Assembly: GCA_042217505.1 (NCBI GenBank)
Contig: JBDGSN010000007.1
Span: forward strand, 2,700-66,699
Direction: 5' to 3'
DNA length: 64,000 nt
DNA from: Candidatus Nanohaloarchaea archaeon
GTDB lineage: Archaea; Nanohalarchaeota; Nanosalinia; Nanosalinales; Nanosalinaceae
Made by a program: the position numbers and the translations under genes. The notes under the pieces were generated by a model. That model did not search any database, was not told where the DNA came from, and saw only the letters and a program-made list of their open reading frames with translations. Each line of letters opens with the position of its first letter. The stretch's first letter is position 1. Below are positions 5,243 through 59,842 of the stretch, one piece after another.

Positions 5243-6127
5243 ATGAGACTGCCCTGGAACGAAGGACGGGAAGAGAAAAACGAGAAGATCGAACAGCTCC
5301 AGGAAAGGATACAGGAACTGGAAGAGGAAAAAGATAGTTTCAAGCAGAGGTTCCAGGCAGAAAAGGAGCGAAGAAGCGAATTATCCCGGAAAAAACAGGA
5401 TGCGGAGAAGGAGCTTAACAGGTTAAGAGATCGTTTAAGAGCTGATGAGGGAAAAGTTGAAGAGGATGAATCACGGCAGAATGACTTCACAAAGATATCT
5501 TATGGGAGAGTGAAGAAGATGCTTCAGAAACTTGGAACTGTAAGTTCGGAGGAAAAAGATATGGTAACTGTCTACTCTCCCGGCAAGTTCGAGAACCATC
5601 CTCGGCTGAAAGATATCAAGAACTCGGTTAACCGGGAGGGATATCAGGTATTGAAAAACAGAGAAAGCTTTGTGGCATTCATCGATCCTGATCTATCCAG
5701 CTATCTTGTGGAGCTATCCCCGTTCTACAGCGAAAAACTTTCTATCGACGACGGCTTCTACACAGGTCGGTTGCTCCAATTCATTGAGGAGGAGAAGCAC
5801 TGGCTGCTCGTTACAGCTGGCGATACAAGGCTTTACAGGGAGAAAGACGGAGAGTTCGAGGAGATCGATAGAGAAGCCTCAAGGGTGGAGAAGAAGCATT
5901 CGAAAGGAGGTTTCTCCCAGCAAAGGTTCGAGAGGAAAAGAGAGGACCAGATCGAGAAACATGTCAAAGCAGTTGCCGAGATGATCAAAGAGAAAGATCT
6001 TGAAGAGGTCTACATCCTCGGAGATAAGAGGATCTGCAGCGATCTCCCCGGCAAATACCTGGGCAACTTTGATCCAAATATGAAGAAACCTGAGCAGTTC
6101 TACGGATTCCAGCTACTGCAGTTCTAG
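5243..6127 (+). CDS. eRF1 middle-domain paralogue (Vms1/VLRF1-like) with N-terminal coiled coil
   Basis: HSKGGFSQQRFERKREDQIEKHV aligns by eye with RAGGQSAQRFERIRKSMYETF of the aRF1 in this window. The N-terminal 80 aa are E/K/R-rich coiled coil. Confidence 0.6.
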   Translation: MRLPWNEGREEKNEKIEQLQERIQELEEEKDSFKQRFQAEKERRSELSRKKQDAEKELNRLRDRLRADEGKVEEDESRQNDFTKISYGRVKKMLQKLGTVSSEEKDMVTVYSPGKFENHPRLKDIKNSVNREGYQVLKNRESFVAFIDPDLSSYLVELSPFYSEKLSIDDGFYTGRLLQFIEEEKHWLLVTAGDTRLYREKDGEFEEIDREASRVEKKHSKGGFSQQRFERKREDQIEKHVKAVAEMIKEKDLEEVYILGDKRICSDLPGKYLGNFDPNMKKPEQFYGFQLLQF

Positions 6128-56263: not shown

Positions 56264-57082
56264 CTAGTTGCCTTCAAGAGCGTCTATCGCTATTGAGGCA
56301 GCGACCAGGGATTCCTTTGGTATATCTTCTGGATCGTCTATCTCTATGCTGTATGCATCCCTGATACTGAACTTTCCTTTTATCCGTCCGATCTCTCTAT
56401 CATCAGGATTCTTTATGACATACGAGTGTGGTATGAACGCAAATATATTCGGTAATACAGGTATGAAACCGCCGAGAACTCTGAGAACGGCTACCGCTTC
56501 ATTGGCACTTTCCACGTTGGCGAGAAGTCTTTCGTCGCTGTCTCCTGATTTGATCTTCCAGTGATGGGTGAATATTGTGTAGTTTCTTTTGAGCACTGCC
56601 ACTTTGTCCCCGGACTCCTCGTCTACGACTGCGTAATCTCCAGCTACATCGATTATCTTCTGGCCCTTGACCCTGAATACCACGTCGCCGTCGGCGTTGT
56701 AAAATGGTACCTTCTCCTTCAACCTGAACAGTTTCTGCTTCGCCCTGAGAATAAGTTCGTCATCGTCGTCCCAGACCTTGTACCGGTTAAGGATGAAGTT
56801 CTGCCTTACTCTGTAGACATCCCCGGATAGGTCGACACCGCCGATAACGTCTTTATCTGTCTGAGAGACCGTTTCGACCTGTTCATCCCCTGTCTCACCG
56901 GTGGGTTTACTGGGGTCCTGTCCCTGTTCAAGCTTTCTTCTCAGATCATGGACTGCCTGTTGTATCCTTTTCTGATCGACTCCTTCGTCCTGGAGAGTCC
57001 TGTTTATCTCGTCTATAGAATAACCGTCCTGAAATGCGTTTTCTATCCAGTTCTCAAGCTCTTGCTGCTCCATCAACCACAA
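56264..57082 (-). CDS. LURP-one-related / tubby-C-like (DUF567-type) protein with N-terminal helical domain
   Basis: YRVRQNFILNRYKVWDDDDELILRAKQKLFRLKEKVPFYNADGDVVFRVKGQ... has the repeated beta-hairpin pattern typical of the fold. Confidence 0.55.
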   Translation of the reverse strand: MWLMEQQELENWIENAFQDGYSIDEINRTLQDEGVDQKRIQQAVHDLRRKLEQGQDPSKPTGETGDEQVETVSQTDKDVIGGVDLSGDVYRVRQNFILNRYKVWDDDDELILRAKQKLFRLKEKVPFYNADGDVVFRVKGQKIIDVAGDYAVVDEESGDKVAVLKRNYTIFTHHWKIKSGDSDERLLANVESANEAVAVLRVLGGFIPVLPNIFAFIPHSYVIKNPDDREIGRIKGKFSIRDAYSIEIDDPEDIPKESLVAASIAIDALEGN

Positions 57083-57106: not shown

Positions 57107-59842
57107 TTACCTGATTCTGTAGCGCAGAATCGCAGCGATTCCTCCCATGTTAAGAAGTCTCTGACCTTCCTCGTGGTCGTCGGAAATGATCTCGACATCG
57201 CTGGACATCTCCTCTGCCTTCTCCGCCATCACATCGACTATATCCTGGAACTCCTCAAGGTCCATCTCCTCACCGCATTCATCACAGGTCTTCAAACCGG
57301 AGATCTCTGGATCTTCCTCGAAAACCTTTTTCTCATGGCCGTTCGGACATATATAAGTGGCTTCAAACATATCGTAGCTCTCCGAGATCAGTACTGTGTC
57401 AACAGCCCCCATCTCCATAGCTTTCAGAACATGCTCAAGACCGTACTCTGACTTCCCGTTCTCCTCCTTCAGGTTGGTGAAGAACTCGGTAACAAGGTTC
57501 TTTTCCCGCACTACCTGGGAATCCTCGATAGCGTCTTCCGCCTTCTGCACAAGCTCGCTTAAAGCATCCTCTCCCGAGTAGTTGGTAGATTCCCGAGCAA
57601 CGATCCTTTCCTTCAGTTCGTTGTGAAGATAGTTGTCATCGATAAGCTTGTCCTTCGTGAAACCTGGACCTCCAACGATTATACCGAGAAGCTTATCCTC
57701 CCTCGCTTTTTCAAGGAAAGCGGTCTTCGCCTTGTCCGCTATATCGGAAAGGAATGTTTCATACATCGATTTCCTGATTCGCTCGAATCTCTGGGCTGAG
57801 TTATGTACTATTAGTCCGTTAGCGACAAAGTTTTTGGCTTCTACAGAGATATCTATAGTCCTGTTCTCGCCAATTTCTTCTATCGAATCTATTTTCGCTG
57901 GAAGTATTTCCGGTTGAGATATTGCTTCTAAATCATTCTTGAGGTTTCCAGAGGAGTTTTGTACGAAGTTTTTGTTAAATGCTTTCTTACTTATCTCTCT
58001 ATCTCCCTGTAGATAGGTATTCGCAGATTTGAAGTCTTCCATAGTTCTCCCGTGCTCTTCCAACTTCTTTCTGACTTCAGGACCCTGAGTTAATATTTGC
58101 CGGTTATTGTTCCTTGAGTTTAGGTTCTGGACTATTTTTTCTAGTTCAACTGTTTTTCTTTCTGCGGTAAAGCCTATTTTCTCCGCAAATTTTTCAGCCG
58201 ATAGCTGGTCTGAGATACTGATTGTGTAGCGGAGATTGTCTGAGTAAGGATTTTTAGAGTTATCGTAAGTTCTTAGAGAAGAGATTACTCCATATCTCAT
58301 TAATTGCTGTTGAAGTTGCTGCATGAATTTCTTGTTATTTGCAGATATCCCTATTCTGCCTCTTGATTCAGAACAATATCCTTCAGCATCATAGAACCCT
58401 TTAATGAATCCTGAAACGATTTTATCGCCTGATATCATTATTTTTTCAGGTATCTCAGTGTTATGAGATTTCTTGATTTCAGGAAACTCTTTTTCAAATA
58501 GTTTTACTAGGGGTTTTCCAAATGCTCTTAGGTTGTAGTAATTCTTTTCTTCCCTGAATCTGATTGAGGTGTTGCAGCCAAACTTTTTCTCAAGTAATTC
58601 TCTATATTTTTCTGCTACTTCCTTGTCTTGTTCGTGGAAATTGAGCCTCTTCGGGTCAAAGCTTCCATCGCCAGCGAAGTATCCTATTATCTGGGCGAGC
58701 TCATGGTCTATTTCTGTTGGCAGACTGTAGTCTTTCCCTCTACAGTTTTCTCTTACAAAGCTTTCTCCAAGATCAAGCTCTTCAATTAGATCTTCTAAGA
58801 ACTTCCTTTTGATGTCTCGTTCTCCTTTCTCAATTTTTGATATTGCTGTCTGTGTTTTACCTAGTTTCTCTCCAAGTTCTTTCTGGCAAAGATCTTTTTC
58901 CTTTCTTGTCTCCTTGATTTTTTGTCTCCCTTTCTCAGAAATCTTGAATGAATTGTATAGCCTTTCTACATTTAGACTAGGTTTATGACGGCTTGTCTCG
59001 TATTTTTCAGGTAGCAGAAGCTTTTCTCCCTCTGTCAGATCTTCTACATTCCTTGTTTCAACGGTTTTATTGGTTACAAATACTTCATGGTCTCCGCTGG
59101 CTCTAATAGTCATTTTCGGATACTTGGTTTCAATCTTGTACAACTTCTTCTTGTTCTCCCATTTGTCGGTCACTTTGGAGTCTTTCATCCTCATAGAGTT
59201 GAAATCAGCGGATTTGACTCTATCGCCGACTTCTATATCTTGAATCTCTTTTACTTCTCCGTTGGATAGCTGTACAACTGTTTCTGGATGAAGACACTGT
59301 CCTCCGGCTCTTGTCTTCCCGGGAACGTTAGATTCAAGGGTGTAGGCAGTCTTTATACTGTTGCCTTGAAGATAACCTATCGCAGCATCTTGTTTATCTG
59401 CCACTATAAGACCGTAGACCCTGTCATCCACAATCATTTGCCGTAGAGGCTCTAAGACGAATTCTTTATCGCATCTGTAACGACGTGATTCGATTGGCTC
59501 CGGTGGTACGACCTCCCATATCTGGATGTCCGGCCGACCCTCTGTATCGGAAACATTGCCTGAGAAAAACACGACCCCGTTCTCAGGGGTCACAGGCTCT
59601 TCTTTGACTCTTCTACCTATCTTGTCAAGAGCTGCCTTGACATTCTTCCGGGTCTGCTTCGACTTGATGTTCTCCGCTTCGGAAGCTTCCGATGTTATGA
59701 ACTCCGAGATTTTTCCCATATCATAACCTGCCGGGATGTAAAGAGAGACCAGCTCAGTGTTCCGTCCGCGGATATCTTCAAGCTTCTTGATCAGCTTCTT
59801 CAGCTGGTACTTCGACATCTCTGAATGTTTTTCGTTGCTCAT
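57107..59842 (-). CDS. prf1: peptide chain release factor aRF1 interrupted by an intein
   Basis: NIKS motif (AENIKSKQ). GGQ motif split as KTRAGGQ / intein / SAQRFERIRK. The protein is 412 aa after removing 499 aa. Confidence 0.95.
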   Translation of the reverse strand: MSNEKHSEMSKYQLKKLIKKLEDIRGRNTELVSLYIPAGYDMGKISEFITSEASEAENIKSKQTRKNVKAALDKIGRRVKEEPVTPENGVVFFSGNVSDTEGRPDIQIWEVVPPEPIESRRYRCDKEFVLEPLRQMIVDDRVYGLIVADKQDAAIGYLQGNSIKTAYTLESNVPGKTRAGGQCLHPETVVQLSNGEVKEIQDIEVGDRVKSADFNSMRMKDSKVTDKWENKKKLYKIETKYPKMTIRASGDHEVFVTNKTVETRNVEDLTEGEKLLLPEKYETSRHKPSLNVERLYNSFKISEKGRQKIKETRKEKDLCQKELGEKLGKTQTAISKIEKGERDIKRKFLEDLIEELDLGESFVRENCRGKDYSLPTEIDHELAQIIGYFAGDGSFDPKRLNFHEQDKEVAEKYRELLEKKFGCNTSIRFREEKNYYNLRAFGKPLVKLFEKEFPEIKKSHNTEIPEKIMISGDKIVSGFIKGFYDAEGYCSESRGRIGISANNKKFMQQLQQQLMRYGVISSLRTYDNSKNPYSDNLRYTISISDQLSAEKFAEKIGFTAERKTVELEKIVQNLNSRNNNRQILTQGPEVRKKLEEHGRTMEDFKSANTYLQGDREISKKAFNKNFVQNSSGNLKNDLEAISQPEILPAKIDSIEEIGENRTIDISVEAKNFVANGLIVHNSAQRFERIRKSMYETFLSDIADKAKTAFLEKAREDKLLGIIVGGPGFTKDKLIDDNYLHNELKERIVARESTNYSGEDALSELVQKAEDAIEDSQVVREKNLVTEFFTNLKEENGKSEYGLEHVLKAMEMGAVDTVLISESYDMFEATYICPNGHEKKVFEEDPEISGLKTCDECGEEMDLEEFQDIVDVMAEKAEEMSSDVEIISDDHEEGQRLLNMGGIAAILRYRIR
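57800..59296 (-). mobile_element. 499-aa intein (Hint + HTH + LAGLIDADG homing endonuclease) in aRF1
   Basis: Starts CLHPETVVQL, has block B SGDHEVFV, an XRE-like HTH LCQKELGEKLGKTQTAISKIEKGERDI, and LAGLIDADG motifs IIGYFAGDGSF and FIKGFYDAEGY. It ends LIVHN followed by a +1 Ser. AT-rich: a hand count of 58441-58500 gives 17/60 GC, against 31/60 in the extein line 57241-57300. Confidence 0.9.

What the first reader, a model, noticed from the sequence alone, without database searches (positions are those of the whole stretch)
57800..59296. Intein inserted exactly after the catalytic GGQ of aRF1, carrying an extra HTH domain
- The release factor reads ...NVPGKTRAGGQ | CLHPETVVQL...FVANGLIVHN | SAQRFERIRK...
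- The 499-aa insertion splits the universally conserved GGQ peptidyl-tRNA hydrolysis loop. Until it splices, the host protein cannot be functional.
- The element has all the hallmarks of a full-length intein: Cys1, a block B His, two LAGLIDADG motifs, and a terminal HN followed by a +1 Ser.
- It also has an XRE-type helix-turn-helix segment between the Hint N-lobe and the endonuclease.
- It is much more AT-rich than the exteins, about 28% against about 52% GC in hand-counted 60-nt lines. This points to horizontal arrival.
- I do not recall aRF1 among the classic intein hosts. An essential translation termination factor gated by protein splicing would be worth documenting.
Basis: partly seen in the sequence, partly recalled or inferred. 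Interest (0 to 1): 0.6.

Follow-up and report, generated by a model that had tools for sequence, protein, structure and literature searches.

The report
Homing intein in aRF1 GGQ loop
The only release-factor gene of this tiny salt-loving archaeon is split, right after its catalytic GGQ motif, by a genuine self-splicing mobile intein with a DNA-cutting enzyme and a DNA-binding helper domain. It is a conventional element, common in DPANN archaea in public data, and I found no paper that describes it.

Summary
ORF 57107-59842 (minus strand, 911 aa) is aRF1, interrupted after Gln182 of GGQ by a 499-aa intein (57800-59296). Removing the intein restores NVPGKTRAGGQ|SAQRF, the sequence of intein-free orthologues.

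- **Motifs:** All class-1 splicing residues and both LAGLIDADG acidic residues are present and near-invariant in 107 homologues.
- **HTH:** An XRE-type HTH (PF01381, 42 bits) lies between the N-terminal Hint lobe and the endonuclease. A second helical accessory domain follows the endonuclease.
- **Structure:** The AlphaFold model (pLDDT 95) best matches the TliVMA, PI-TkoII and PI-PfuI inteins.
- **Distribution:** The allele is not rare. I found it in 12 of 70 species genomes of the host phylum, 39 of 401 in the Woesearchaeota-type sister phylum, and 182 species genomes overall, nearly all DPANN. Presence is scattered, with presence/absence differences within genera, and mini and HTH-less derivatives exist. 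This fits a homing cycle.
- **GC content:** The GC contrast is 38% against 49%, not 28% against 52%. All inteins in these genomes are AT-richer than their hosts, so GC alone does not show recent arrival.
- **HTH modules:** They are common in inteins of this genome and its relatives.
- **Literature:** I found no paper on an aRF1 intein.

Verdict: a real, ordinary homing intein at a host site missing from the searchable literature. Moderate interest.

The parts
59297..59842 (-). aRF1 N-extein (residues 1-182). Contains domain N with NIKS and YxCxxxF, and the first part of domain M, ending in GGQ.
   Evidence: ORF list and translation. eRF1_1 and baeRF hits, and TIGR03676 positions 2-174.
57800..59296 (-). 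Complete 499-aa intein (Cys1 ... His498-Asn499), followed by Ser+1.
   Evidence: AlphaFold model with pLDDT 95 and pTM 0.92. Foldseek best hits are the TliVMA, PI-TkoII and PI-PfuI inteins.
58997..59296 (-). Hint N-terminal lobe (intein residues 1-100). Includes block A Cys1 and block B S67-x-x-H70 (59078-59107).
   Evidence: Intein_Nterm TIGR01445 and Hint hits. C1 and H70 are conserved in 107/107 homologues, and residue 67 is S or T in 107/107.
58745..58945 (-). XRE/Cro-C1-type helix-turn-helix module (intein residues about 118-184, five helices).
   Evidence: PF01381 scores 42-45 bits against a cut-off of 23. Model helices are 121-133, 138-145, 149-157, 164-174 and 180-184. Q138, Q149, S153 and E156 are conserved in at least 102/107 homologues. 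The module is cleanly absent in HTH-less variants.
58112..58708 (-). Two-motif LAGLIDADG homing endonuclease domain (residues 197-395). Motif 1 is LAQIIGYFAGDGS (58661-58699) and motif 2 is VSGFIKGFYDAEGY (58376-58417).
   Evidence: LAGLIDADG_3 at 87 bits in two stretches. D210 is conserved in 107/107 and residue 305 is E or D in 106/107. The sequence aligns to the TliVMA intein 7qss.
57911..58111 (-). Second helical accessory domain (residues about 396-462), in the position of the accessory domains (ACDs) of solved archaeal inteins.
   Evidence: Model helices are 405-414, 419-429, 437-445 and 450-460. No Pfam match. The position matches the ACD described in PMC8966425.
57800..57910 (-). Hint C-terminal lobe (residues 463-499). 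Includes block F D482 and block G ...NGLIVHN.
   Evidence: Intein_Cterm TIGR01443. D482, H498 and N499 are conserved in 107/107.
57107..57799 (-). aRF1 C-extein (Ser+1 to the stop codon). Contains the rest of domain M and domain C with its zinc-ribbon-like insert.
   Evidence: eRF1_2, eRF1_3 and TIGR03676 positions 174-402. The spliced sequence aligns end to end with Halobacterium aRF1 4af1.

Best explanation
This is a canonical class-1 mobile intein occupying one fixed site in aRF1, between Gln of GGQ and the following Ser. It belongs to an intein family spread through DPANN archaea.

**Protein level (inferred from motifs).** The 911-aa precursor is translated whole.
1. Cys1 makes the N-S acyl shift.
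2. Ser+1 attacks in the transesterification step.
3. Asn499 cyclises, helped by His498.
4. The exteins are joined into a 412-aa aRF1 with an intact GGQSAQRF loop.

Splicing must be efficient, because this is the genome's only aRF1.

**DNA level (inferred).** The freed 57-kDa intein is a monomeric two-motif LAGLIDADG endonuclease. It would cut intein-free aRF1 alleles at the GGQ-coding site, and it is then copied in by repair (homing).

**Accessory domains.** The XRE-type HTH before the nuclease and the helical domain after it are most likely extra DNA grips. They would lengthen or loosen target recognition, as shown for the accessory domains of the TliVMA intein and the DNA-recognition region of PI-SceI.

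**Evolution.** The family goes through the usual homing cycle of gain, fixation, decay to HTH-less and mini forms, and loss.
For: **Shown directly**
- The insertion is exact and in frame, and the spliced junction equals that of intein-free orthologues.
- All splicing residues are present and conserved in 107/107 homologues, with Ser+1 in 106/106.
- The nuclease acidic residues D210 (107/107) and E/D305 (106/107) are conserved, and the endonuclease region has one of the two lowest column entropies in the intein, after the C-terminal Hint lobe.
- The model has pLDDT 95, and its best fold matches are endonuclease-bearing inteins: 7qss (TM 0.77), 2cw7 and 1dq3.
- aRF1 is single-copy in a 97%-complete genome.

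**Evidence for mobility**
- Presence is 12 of 70 species in the phylum, with presence/absence differences within genera g6, g10, g18, g20 and g21.
- Intein presence needs 8 changes on the extein tree, at least 5 of them forced by well-supported branches, and is no more clustered than shuffled labels.
- The closest exteins in 5.8 billion proteins (79-82% identity) are all intein-free.
- Against L009 the intein is 72% identical and the extein 73%. Against L013 the intein is 55% and the extein 77%.
- Mini-inteins of 145 and 184 aa and HTH-less forms sit at the same site. The HTH-less forms nest inside HTH-bearing clades.

**Evidence on the HTH role**
- The HTH is conserved as strongly as the Hint lobes.
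- The same arrangement occurs in a 30%-identical intein in aCPSF1.
- Accessory domains of solved inteins have been shown to modulate DNA cleavage (PMC8966425).
Against: - No experiment shows splicing or cleavage for any member of this family.
- The test of intein against extein tree conflict within the family is only borderline (AU p = 0.054). At the scale of families and phyla the intein tree follows the host tree. Much of the pattern could therefore be vertical descent with repeated loss.
- In solved VMA inteins the Hint-to-nuclease linker, where this HTH sits, lies away from the DNA-binding face (PMC8966425). I could not inspect model coordinates to see whether the HTH can reach DNA bound by the nuclease.
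- No near-identical intein-free allele was found, so current homing in this population is not shown.
Confidence: 0.88

Rival explanations
1. The intein still splices but no longer homes. The endonuclease and HTH would be inactive relics in this lineage, and the scattered distribution would reflect ancient presence followed by many independent precise losses.
For: - The intein and extein trees agree on the large clades, and the AU test does not reject congruence at 5%.
- The gene lies unbroken inside a 70-kb contig with no sign of an intein-free allele.
- Mini-inteins show that decay does occur at this site.
Against: - The catalytic acidic residues are conserved in 107/107 and 106/107 homologues, and the nuclease region is among the two most conserved parts of the intein. 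That is not expected for a dead domain.
- Presence differs within five genera.
- Intein and extein similarity ratios are discordant between pairs.
- Another intein in the same assembly is caught as a presence/absence fork, so inteins are polymorphic in this population.
Confidence: 0.08
2. The element has been co-opted by the host. In one version, splicing is conditional (on salt, redox state or DNA binding through the HTH), so that the supply of active aRF1 is gated. In another, the freed HTH-nuclease protein acts as a DNA-binding regulator, as WhiA does.
For: - The HTH recognition-helix residues are almost invariant across phyla.
- The precursor must be inactive, because the GGQ loop is split. 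This follows from established knowledge of the eRF1 mechanism.
- Conditional splicing is documented for other archaeal inteins (cited, reference 76).
Against: - About 83-90% of related species, including the closest relatives, lack the intein. No host function can therefore depend on it.
- The HTH has been lost at least twice without loss of the intein.
- The nuclease catalytic residues are kept, unlike in WhiA.
- No Cys partner for Cys1 is conserved; only C1 is invariant.
Confidence: 0.03
3. It is not an intein at all. It would be an assembly chimera or an insertion that has turned aRF1 into a pseudogene.
For: None beyond the fact that the genome is a metagenome assembly of 54 contigs.
Against: - The frame is open over 911 codons, and the boundaries are exact to the residue.
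- The same architecture appears in more than 100 independent assemblies from many studies.
- It is the only aRF1 in the genome.
Confidence: 0.01

Closest known systems
TliVMA and PhoVMA inteins (Thermococcales V-ATPase A subunit, VMA-b site; PDB 7qss, 7qsu, 7qst; Beyer & Iwai 2022, PMC8966425)
   Same: - Best sequence hit (phmmer E 2.8e-19) and best fold hit (Foldseek E 9e-25, TM 0.77 on the target).
- Same order of Hint-N, two-motif LAGLIDADG nuclease, helical accessory domain and Hint-C.
- Also inserted in a catalytic loop of an essential protein.
   Different: - The host protein and insertion site differ.
- The VMA inteins have only an unstructured loop of 28-32 residues between Hint-N and the nuclease. 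This intein has a folded XRE-type HTH there, so it carries two accessory modules.
- Fold-alignment identity is only about 12-17%.
PI-TkoII (PDB 2cw7) and PI-PfuI (PDB 1dq3), archaeal polymerase and RNR inteins
   Same: Endonuclease-bearing inteins with extra DNA-binding domains (stirrup, domain IV, HTH-like ACD). Foldseek E-values are 1.6e-19 and 2.3e-19.
   Different: Their accessory domains lie after the nuclease. Neither has a Pfam HTH_3 module before it.
PI-SceI (yeast VMA1 intein) with its DNA-recognition region
   Same: An intein whose extra DNA-binding region on the N-terminal side of the nuclease contributes to recognition of a long target site. It appears among the fold matches.
   Different: The PI-SceI region is an elaboration within the Hint domain, not an XRE HTH. 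Overall superposition is poor (TM about 0.4).
Archaeal aIF2 (IF-2) intein, the translation-factor intein host listed by Novikova et al. 2016 (PMC4760082)
   Same: An intein in an essential archaeal translation factor. The NCBIfam model PRK14845 gives a weak hit to the intein part.
   Different: The host protein and site differ. That survey states that core translation proteins contain few inteins, and its main text does not mention a release factor.
aCPSF1/FttA HxHxDH-site intein of Nanohaloarchaea (relatives G008 and G033)
   Same: It is 30% identical over intein residues 1-418. The module order is identical: Hint-N, XRE HTH, LAGLIDADG, accessory domain.
   Different: The host gene differs, and the +1 residue is Cys. 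It is absent from this window's genome at the thresholds used.
WhiA (LAGLIDADG fold plus HTH transcription factor)
   Same: It combines a LAGLIDADG fold with an HTH, and it appears among the weaker fold matches 3hyi and 8dy9.
   Different: WhiA has lost the catalytic residues and has no Hint domain. Here both catalytic acidic residues and all splicing residues are kept.

Membership tests
Class-1 intein (Hint-domain protein-splicing element) | Nucleophilic Cys or Ser at position 1 (block A) | tested here: met
   Cys1 is present here and in 107/107 homologues.
Class-1 intein (Hint-domain protein-splicing element) | Block B T/S-x-x-H | tested here: met
   S67-G-D-H70 is present. H70 is conserved in 107/107 homologues, and residue 67 is S or T in 107/107.
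Class-1 intein (Hint-domain protein-splicing element) | Block F Asp, block G penultimate His and terminal Asn, then Cys, Ser or Thr at +1 | tested here: met
   D482, H498 and N499 are conserved in 107/107 homologues, and Ser+1 in 106/106.
Class-1 intein (Hint-domain protein-splicing element) | In-frame insertion whose removal restores the uninterrupted host motif | tested here: met
   The spliced sequence GKTRAGGQ|SAQRF equals that of 20 intein-free orthologues. The spliced protein aligns end to end with aRF1 structure 4af1.
Class-1 intein (Hint-domain protein-splicing element) | Hint fold | tested here: met
   PF14890 scores 77 bits. The model has pLDDT 95 and matches solved inteins.
Class-1 intein (Hint-domain protein-splicing element) | Demonstrated protein splicing | not testable with these tools
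   This needs expression of the precursor followed by SDS-PAGE or mass spectrometry.
Two-motif (monomeric) LAGLIDADG homing endonuclease | Two LAGLIDADG helices, each ending in a catalytic Asp or Glu before Gly | tested here: met
   The motifs are ...YFAGD210G and ...FYDAE305G. D210 is conserved in 107/107 and E/D305 in 106/107. PF14528 matches in two stretches.
Two-motif (monomeric) LAGLIDADG homing endonuclease | Site-specific cleavage of the intein-free allele, and homing | not testable with these tools
   There is only indirect support: a scattered distribution and discordant similarity ratios.
XRE / Cro-C1 helix-turn-helix (Pfam PF01381 HTH_3) | Profile score above the curated cut-off | tested here: met
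   The score is 42.2 bits in the intein and 44.6 bits for the segment alone, against a cut-off of 23. PDB sequence hits are XRE-type regulators 9sf2, 8tac and 2b5a.
XRE / Cro-C1 helix-turn-helix (Pfam PF01381 HTH_3) | Five-helix bundle fold | tested here: met
   The model has five helices between residues 121 and 184, with pLDDT of 87 or more.
XRE / Cro-C1 helix-turn-helix (Pfam PF01381 HTH_3) | Sequence-specific DNA binding | not testable with these tools
   This needs a gel-shift or footprinting experiment, comparing the intact intein with an HTH deletion.
aRF1/eRF1 class-I release factor (TIGR03676) | Equivalog score over the cut-off, with NIKS, YxCxxxF and GGQ motifs | tested here: met
   The score is 416.4 bits against a cut-off of 234.7. 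ENIKSKQ, YRCDKEF and AGGQ are visible in the translation.
Accessory domain (ACD) of endonuclease-bearing archaeal inteins, sensu Beyer & Iwai 2022 | Extra folded domain between the nuclease and the C-terminal Hint lobe | tested here: met
   A four-helix module at residues 405-460 occupies that position. The definition comes from PMC8966425. The XRE HTH lies at a different position, before the nuclease, so it is an additional module rather than this ACD.

The most novel reading that the evidence does not exclude
The aRF1 GGQ-site intein would be an ancient, DPANN-wide element that is absent from the searchable literature. Its two DNA-binding modules would be captured transcription-factor domains that let one intein lineage retarget and colonise several essential genes (aRF1, aCPSF1 and others). 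In some lineages the freed HTH-nuclease protein, or the timing of splicing, would have acquired a host-level role that affects translation termination.
Probability: 0.06. Interest if true: 0.7.

Novelty: new member of a known kind. Interest (0 to 1): 0.35.

Why it matters
- **A new host site.** It adds the translation termination factor, at its catalytic loop, to the list of intein hosts. A major survey says core translation proteins carry few inteins (PMC4760082). This single allele occurs in roughly 10-17% of species in two DPANN phyla.
- **Annotation.** NCBI names many of these precursors 'LAGLIDADG family homing endonuclease' or 'helix-turn-helix domain-containing protein'. As a result, aRF1 appears to be missing from those genomes. 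aRF1 is also, from my own knowledge and not checked here, used as a phylogenomic marker.
- **A natural series for experiments.** The family offers full-length, HTH-less and mini forms at one site. These could be used to test what accessory DNA-binding domains do for homing endonucleases.
- **Limits.** It does not change how inteins or release factors are understood.

Tried and rejected
- **Closest intein-free allele.** A search for a near-identical intein-free aRF1 found nothing closer than 82% identity.
- **Tree conflict.** The AU test of intein against extein tree conflict within the family gave p = 0.054, which is not decisive.
- **GC as evidence of recent transfer.** Rejected as a stand-alone argument, because 8 of the 9 aRF1 inteins compared and the other inteins examined in this genome are also AT-richer than their exteins. 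This intein is, however, the most AT-rich (GC3 0.37) and most basic (pI 8.4) of the six inteins compared in its genome.
- **C-terminal accessory domain.** A Pfam scan of this domain alone gave nothing.
- **Literature.** Nine full-text searches found no aRF1/eRF1 intein paper; one search was aimed at HTH domains in inteins and found PMC8966425. The Novikova survey does not mention a release factor, and its supplementary tables were not held.
- **Cross-phylum jump.** Rejected, because nanohaloarchaeal inteins form one clade, as their exteins do.
- **Second aRF1.** Rejected. The only other hits are a pelota-like ORF and a VLRF1-like ORF.
- **Not attempted.** I could not inspect model coordinates to place the HTH relative to the nuclease's DNA-binding face.
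Full report
**1. What is there**

The window holds one long minus-strand ORF, 57107-59842, of 911 aa. It reads ...NVPGKTRAGGQ|CLHPETVVQL...NFVANGLIVHN|SAQRFERIRK.... Profile searches name every part.

| Part | Model | Score |
|---|---|---|
| Exteins | eRF1_1, eRF1_2, eRF1_3 | hits |
| Exteins | aRF1 equivalog TIGR03676 | 416 bits, cut-off 234.7 |
| Insert | Intein_splicing, Hint | hits |
| Insert | LAGLIDADG_3 | two stretches |
| Insert | HTH_3, intein residues 127-177 | 42 bits, cut-off 23 |

GC content is 37.9% for the intein, 48.4% and 48.9% for the two exteins, and 47.9% for the window.

**2. The junctions are right**

Twenty intein-free aRF1 genes from species of the same family read ...GKT[RK]AGGQSAQRF... 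without interruption. This is the predicted spliced product. The spliced 412-aa sequence aligns end to end with the solved Halobacterium aRF1 structure 4af1 at E 1.8e-88, straight through GGQSAQRF.

The genome has 1.01 Mb in 54 contigs and is 97% complete. It has no second aRF1. The only other hits to the aRF1 model are a pelota-like ORF and a VLRF1-like ORF. The precursor therefore has to splice for the cell to terminate translation. That last step is an inference from the established role of the GGQ loop.

**3. Anatomy**

I aligned 106 full-length homologues to the intein.

| Feature | Residues | Conservation |
|---|---|---|
| Block A nucleophile | C1 | 107/107 |
| Block B | S/T67, H70 | 107/107 |
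| Block F | D482 | 107/107 |
| Block G | H498, N499 | 107/107 |
| +1 residue | Ser | 106/106 |
| Nuclease acidic residue 1 | D210 | 107/107 |
| Nuclease acidic residue 2 | E/D305 | 106/107 |

The AlphaFold model built on that alignment has mean pLDDT 95 and pTM 0.92. From the model and the alignment I read this layout:

- residues 1-100: Hint N-lobe
- residues 121-184: five helices forming the XRE-type HTH
- residues 197-395: two-motif LAGLIDADG domain
- residues 405-460: a four-helix module
- residues 463-499: Hint C-lobe

Foldseek ranks the TliVMA intein first (7qss, E 9e-25, TM 0.77 on the target). PI-TkoII, PI-PfuI, PhoVMA and PI-SceI follow.

Beyer and Iwai (PMC8966425) describe 'accessory domains' between the nuclease and the C-terminal Hint lobe in these solved inteins. 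Some are HTH-like, and they were shown to change DNA cleavage behaviour. The four-helix module here sits at that position.

The XRE HTH sits elsewhere, in the Hint-to-nuclease linker. In the VMA inteins that linker is an unstructured loop away from the DNA-binding face. This intein therefore carries two accessory modules.

The HTH is as conserved as the Hint lobes. Its signature residues Q138, Q149, S153 and E156 are present in at least 102 of 107 sequences.

**4. It is a family, not a one-off**

- A search with the whole precursor returned 226 proteins. Among the best 120, 118 carry the GGQ|C junction at the same site, and where the C-terminal junction could be located it reads HN|S. The other two are truncated.
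- The sources name Nanohaloarchaea, Woesearchaeota, Nanoarchaeota, Pacearchaeota, Aenigmatarchaeota and Diapherotrites/Iainarchaeum.
- In species-representative genomes the intein occurs in 11 of 70 in the host phylum. One more genome has a contig that breaks inside the intein.
- It occurs in 39 of 401 genomes in the Woesearchaeota-type phylum.
- A junction pattern, GK[TFM][RK]AGGQC, matches 182 species genomes in all. The best 80 are almost all DPANN.
- Derivatives sit at the same site. HTH-less forms lack exactly residues about 113-195. Mini-inteins of 145 and 184 aa lack the HTH, the nuclease and the accessory domain.
- The HTH-less forms nest inside HTH-bearing clades and need 2-4 changes on the tree. 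The HTH is therefore ancestral in the sampled family and has been lost repeatedly.

**5. Mobility**

- On an aRF1 extein tree of 30 species from the order, intein presence needs 8 changes. At least 5 are forced by well-supported branches, and presence is no more clustered than shuffled labels.
- Five genera contain both states.
- The window's extein is sister to two intein-free species (support 97).
- The closest exteins in a 5.8-billion-protein collection, at 79-82% identity, are all intein-free.
- Similarity ratios are discordant. Against L009 the intein is 72% identical and the extein 73%. Against L013 the figures are 55% and 77%.

These points fit horizontal spread by homing within the family.

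Two results temper this. At the scale of families and phyla the intein tree follows the host tree. The formal test of conflict within the family is borderline, with AU p = 0.054. Repeated loss must therefore account for part of the pattern, and I cannot say when this lineage gained its copy.

GC content is weak evidence. Seven of the eight relatives' aRF1 inteins (all but L016) and five other inteins of this genome are AT-richer than their exteins. This intein is nonetheless the extreme case in its own genome, with GC3 of 0.37 against 0.58 for its exteins and pI of 8.4 against 4.8.

**6. The HTH is not special to aRF1**

This 1-Mb genome holds at least six more inteins:

- two in a Hel308/Ski2-type helicase
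- one in HerA
- one in a T2SSE/FlaI-like ATPase
- one in a polymerase-like fragment
- one in Cdc48

Several of these carry HTH segments. HerA has an HTH_3 of 34 bits after the nuclease. The second helicase intein has a sub-threshold HTH_3 (21.7 bits, cut-off 23) before the nuclease.

Two relatives carry an intein in aCPSF1, directly after the HxHxDH motif. It is 30% identical to the aRF1 intein and has the same module order.

Earlier notes of this scan say the same about both the aRF1 allele and HTH modules in inteins. I treated those notes as leads and checked the points above myself.

**7. Literature**

Nine full-text searches found no paper on an intein in aRF1, eRF1 or any release factor. 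One of them was aimed at HTH domains in inteins and turned up PMC8966425. The large survey by Novikova et al. lists aIF2 as the frequent translation-factor host. It says core translation components contain few inteins and does not mention release factors in its main text. Its supplementary tables were not available.

A 2023 census counted only two DPANN genomes. The named Nanohaloarchaea among the closest intein-free hits (Ca. Nanohalovita haloferacivicina, Ca. Nanohalococcus occultus, Ca. Nanosalina sp. VS9-1) lack the intein. This probably explains the silence in the literature.

Public annotations do partly see the intein. JGI calls some of these proteins 'eRF1/intein/homing endonuclease'. 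NCBI calls many 'LAGLIDADG family homing endonuclease' or 'helix-turn-helix domain-containing protein', which hides the release factor.

**8. Verdict**

- The GC figures were overstated.
- The HTH is not unusual among inteins.
- The suggestion that splicing gates termination has no support here. Most relatives do without the intein, so no host function can depend on it.

It is a new member of a well-understood kind, at a host site missing from the literature I could search. Splicing, cleavage and the role of the HTH are all inferred and remain untested.

Noticed in passing
Own genome contigs C50 (end; locus L002) and C45 (start; locus L005), outside the window: The two contigs share an identical 55-nt overlap that ends exactly at an intein insertion point in a Hel308/Ski2-type helicase. 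C50 continues intein-free (EYEQM|TGRA) for 13 nt and then ends. C45 continues into a 456-aa LAGLIDADG intein (EYEQM|CLPYDQ...LLHN|CGRAGRP). This looks like an assembly fork caused by an intein presence/absence polymorphism in the sampled population. The +1 residue is Thr in the empty allele and Cys in the occupied one.
   Followed up: partly
window 5243-6127 (+): A 294-aa ORF with an N-terminal coiled coil and a VLRF1-like release-factor domain carrying GGFSQQRF in place of GGQ. It is probably an archaeal Vms1-like peptidyl-tRNA hydrolase for ribosome rescue, and not a second aRF1.
   Followed up: partly
L134 355-3945 (-) and L135 1220-4894 (+), from relatives G008 and G033: aCPSF1/FttA is interrupted directly after its zinc-binding HSHMDH motif by an intein with the same Hint-N, XRE-HTH, LAGLIDADG and accessory-domain order. 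It is 30% identical to the aRF1 intein over residues 1-418, and a second HTH-like segment follows the nuclease.
   Followed up: partly
Own genome loci L002-L007: There are at least seven inteins in a 1.01-Mb genome: aRF1, helicase (two), HerA, a T2SSE/FlaI-like ATPase, a polymerase-like fragment and Cdc48. All five that I measured are AT-richer than their exteins. This is a high intein load for so small a genome.
   Followed up: partly
Proteins P0002-P0120 (public records): NCBI names many intein-bearing aRF1 precursors 'LAGLIDADG family homing endonuclease' or 'helix-turn-helix domain-containing protein', so the release factor goes unnamed in those genome annotations. In a six-frame search each extein half alone scores about 215 bits, below the TIGR03676 cut-off of 234.7.
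   Followed up: no
window 56264-57082 (-): A 272-aa ORF lies directly downstream of aRF1. It has an acidic N-terminal helical part and a conserved C-terminal domain, and the same neighbour is seen next to aRF1 in relative G035 (locus L018). I did not examine its function.
   Followed up: no
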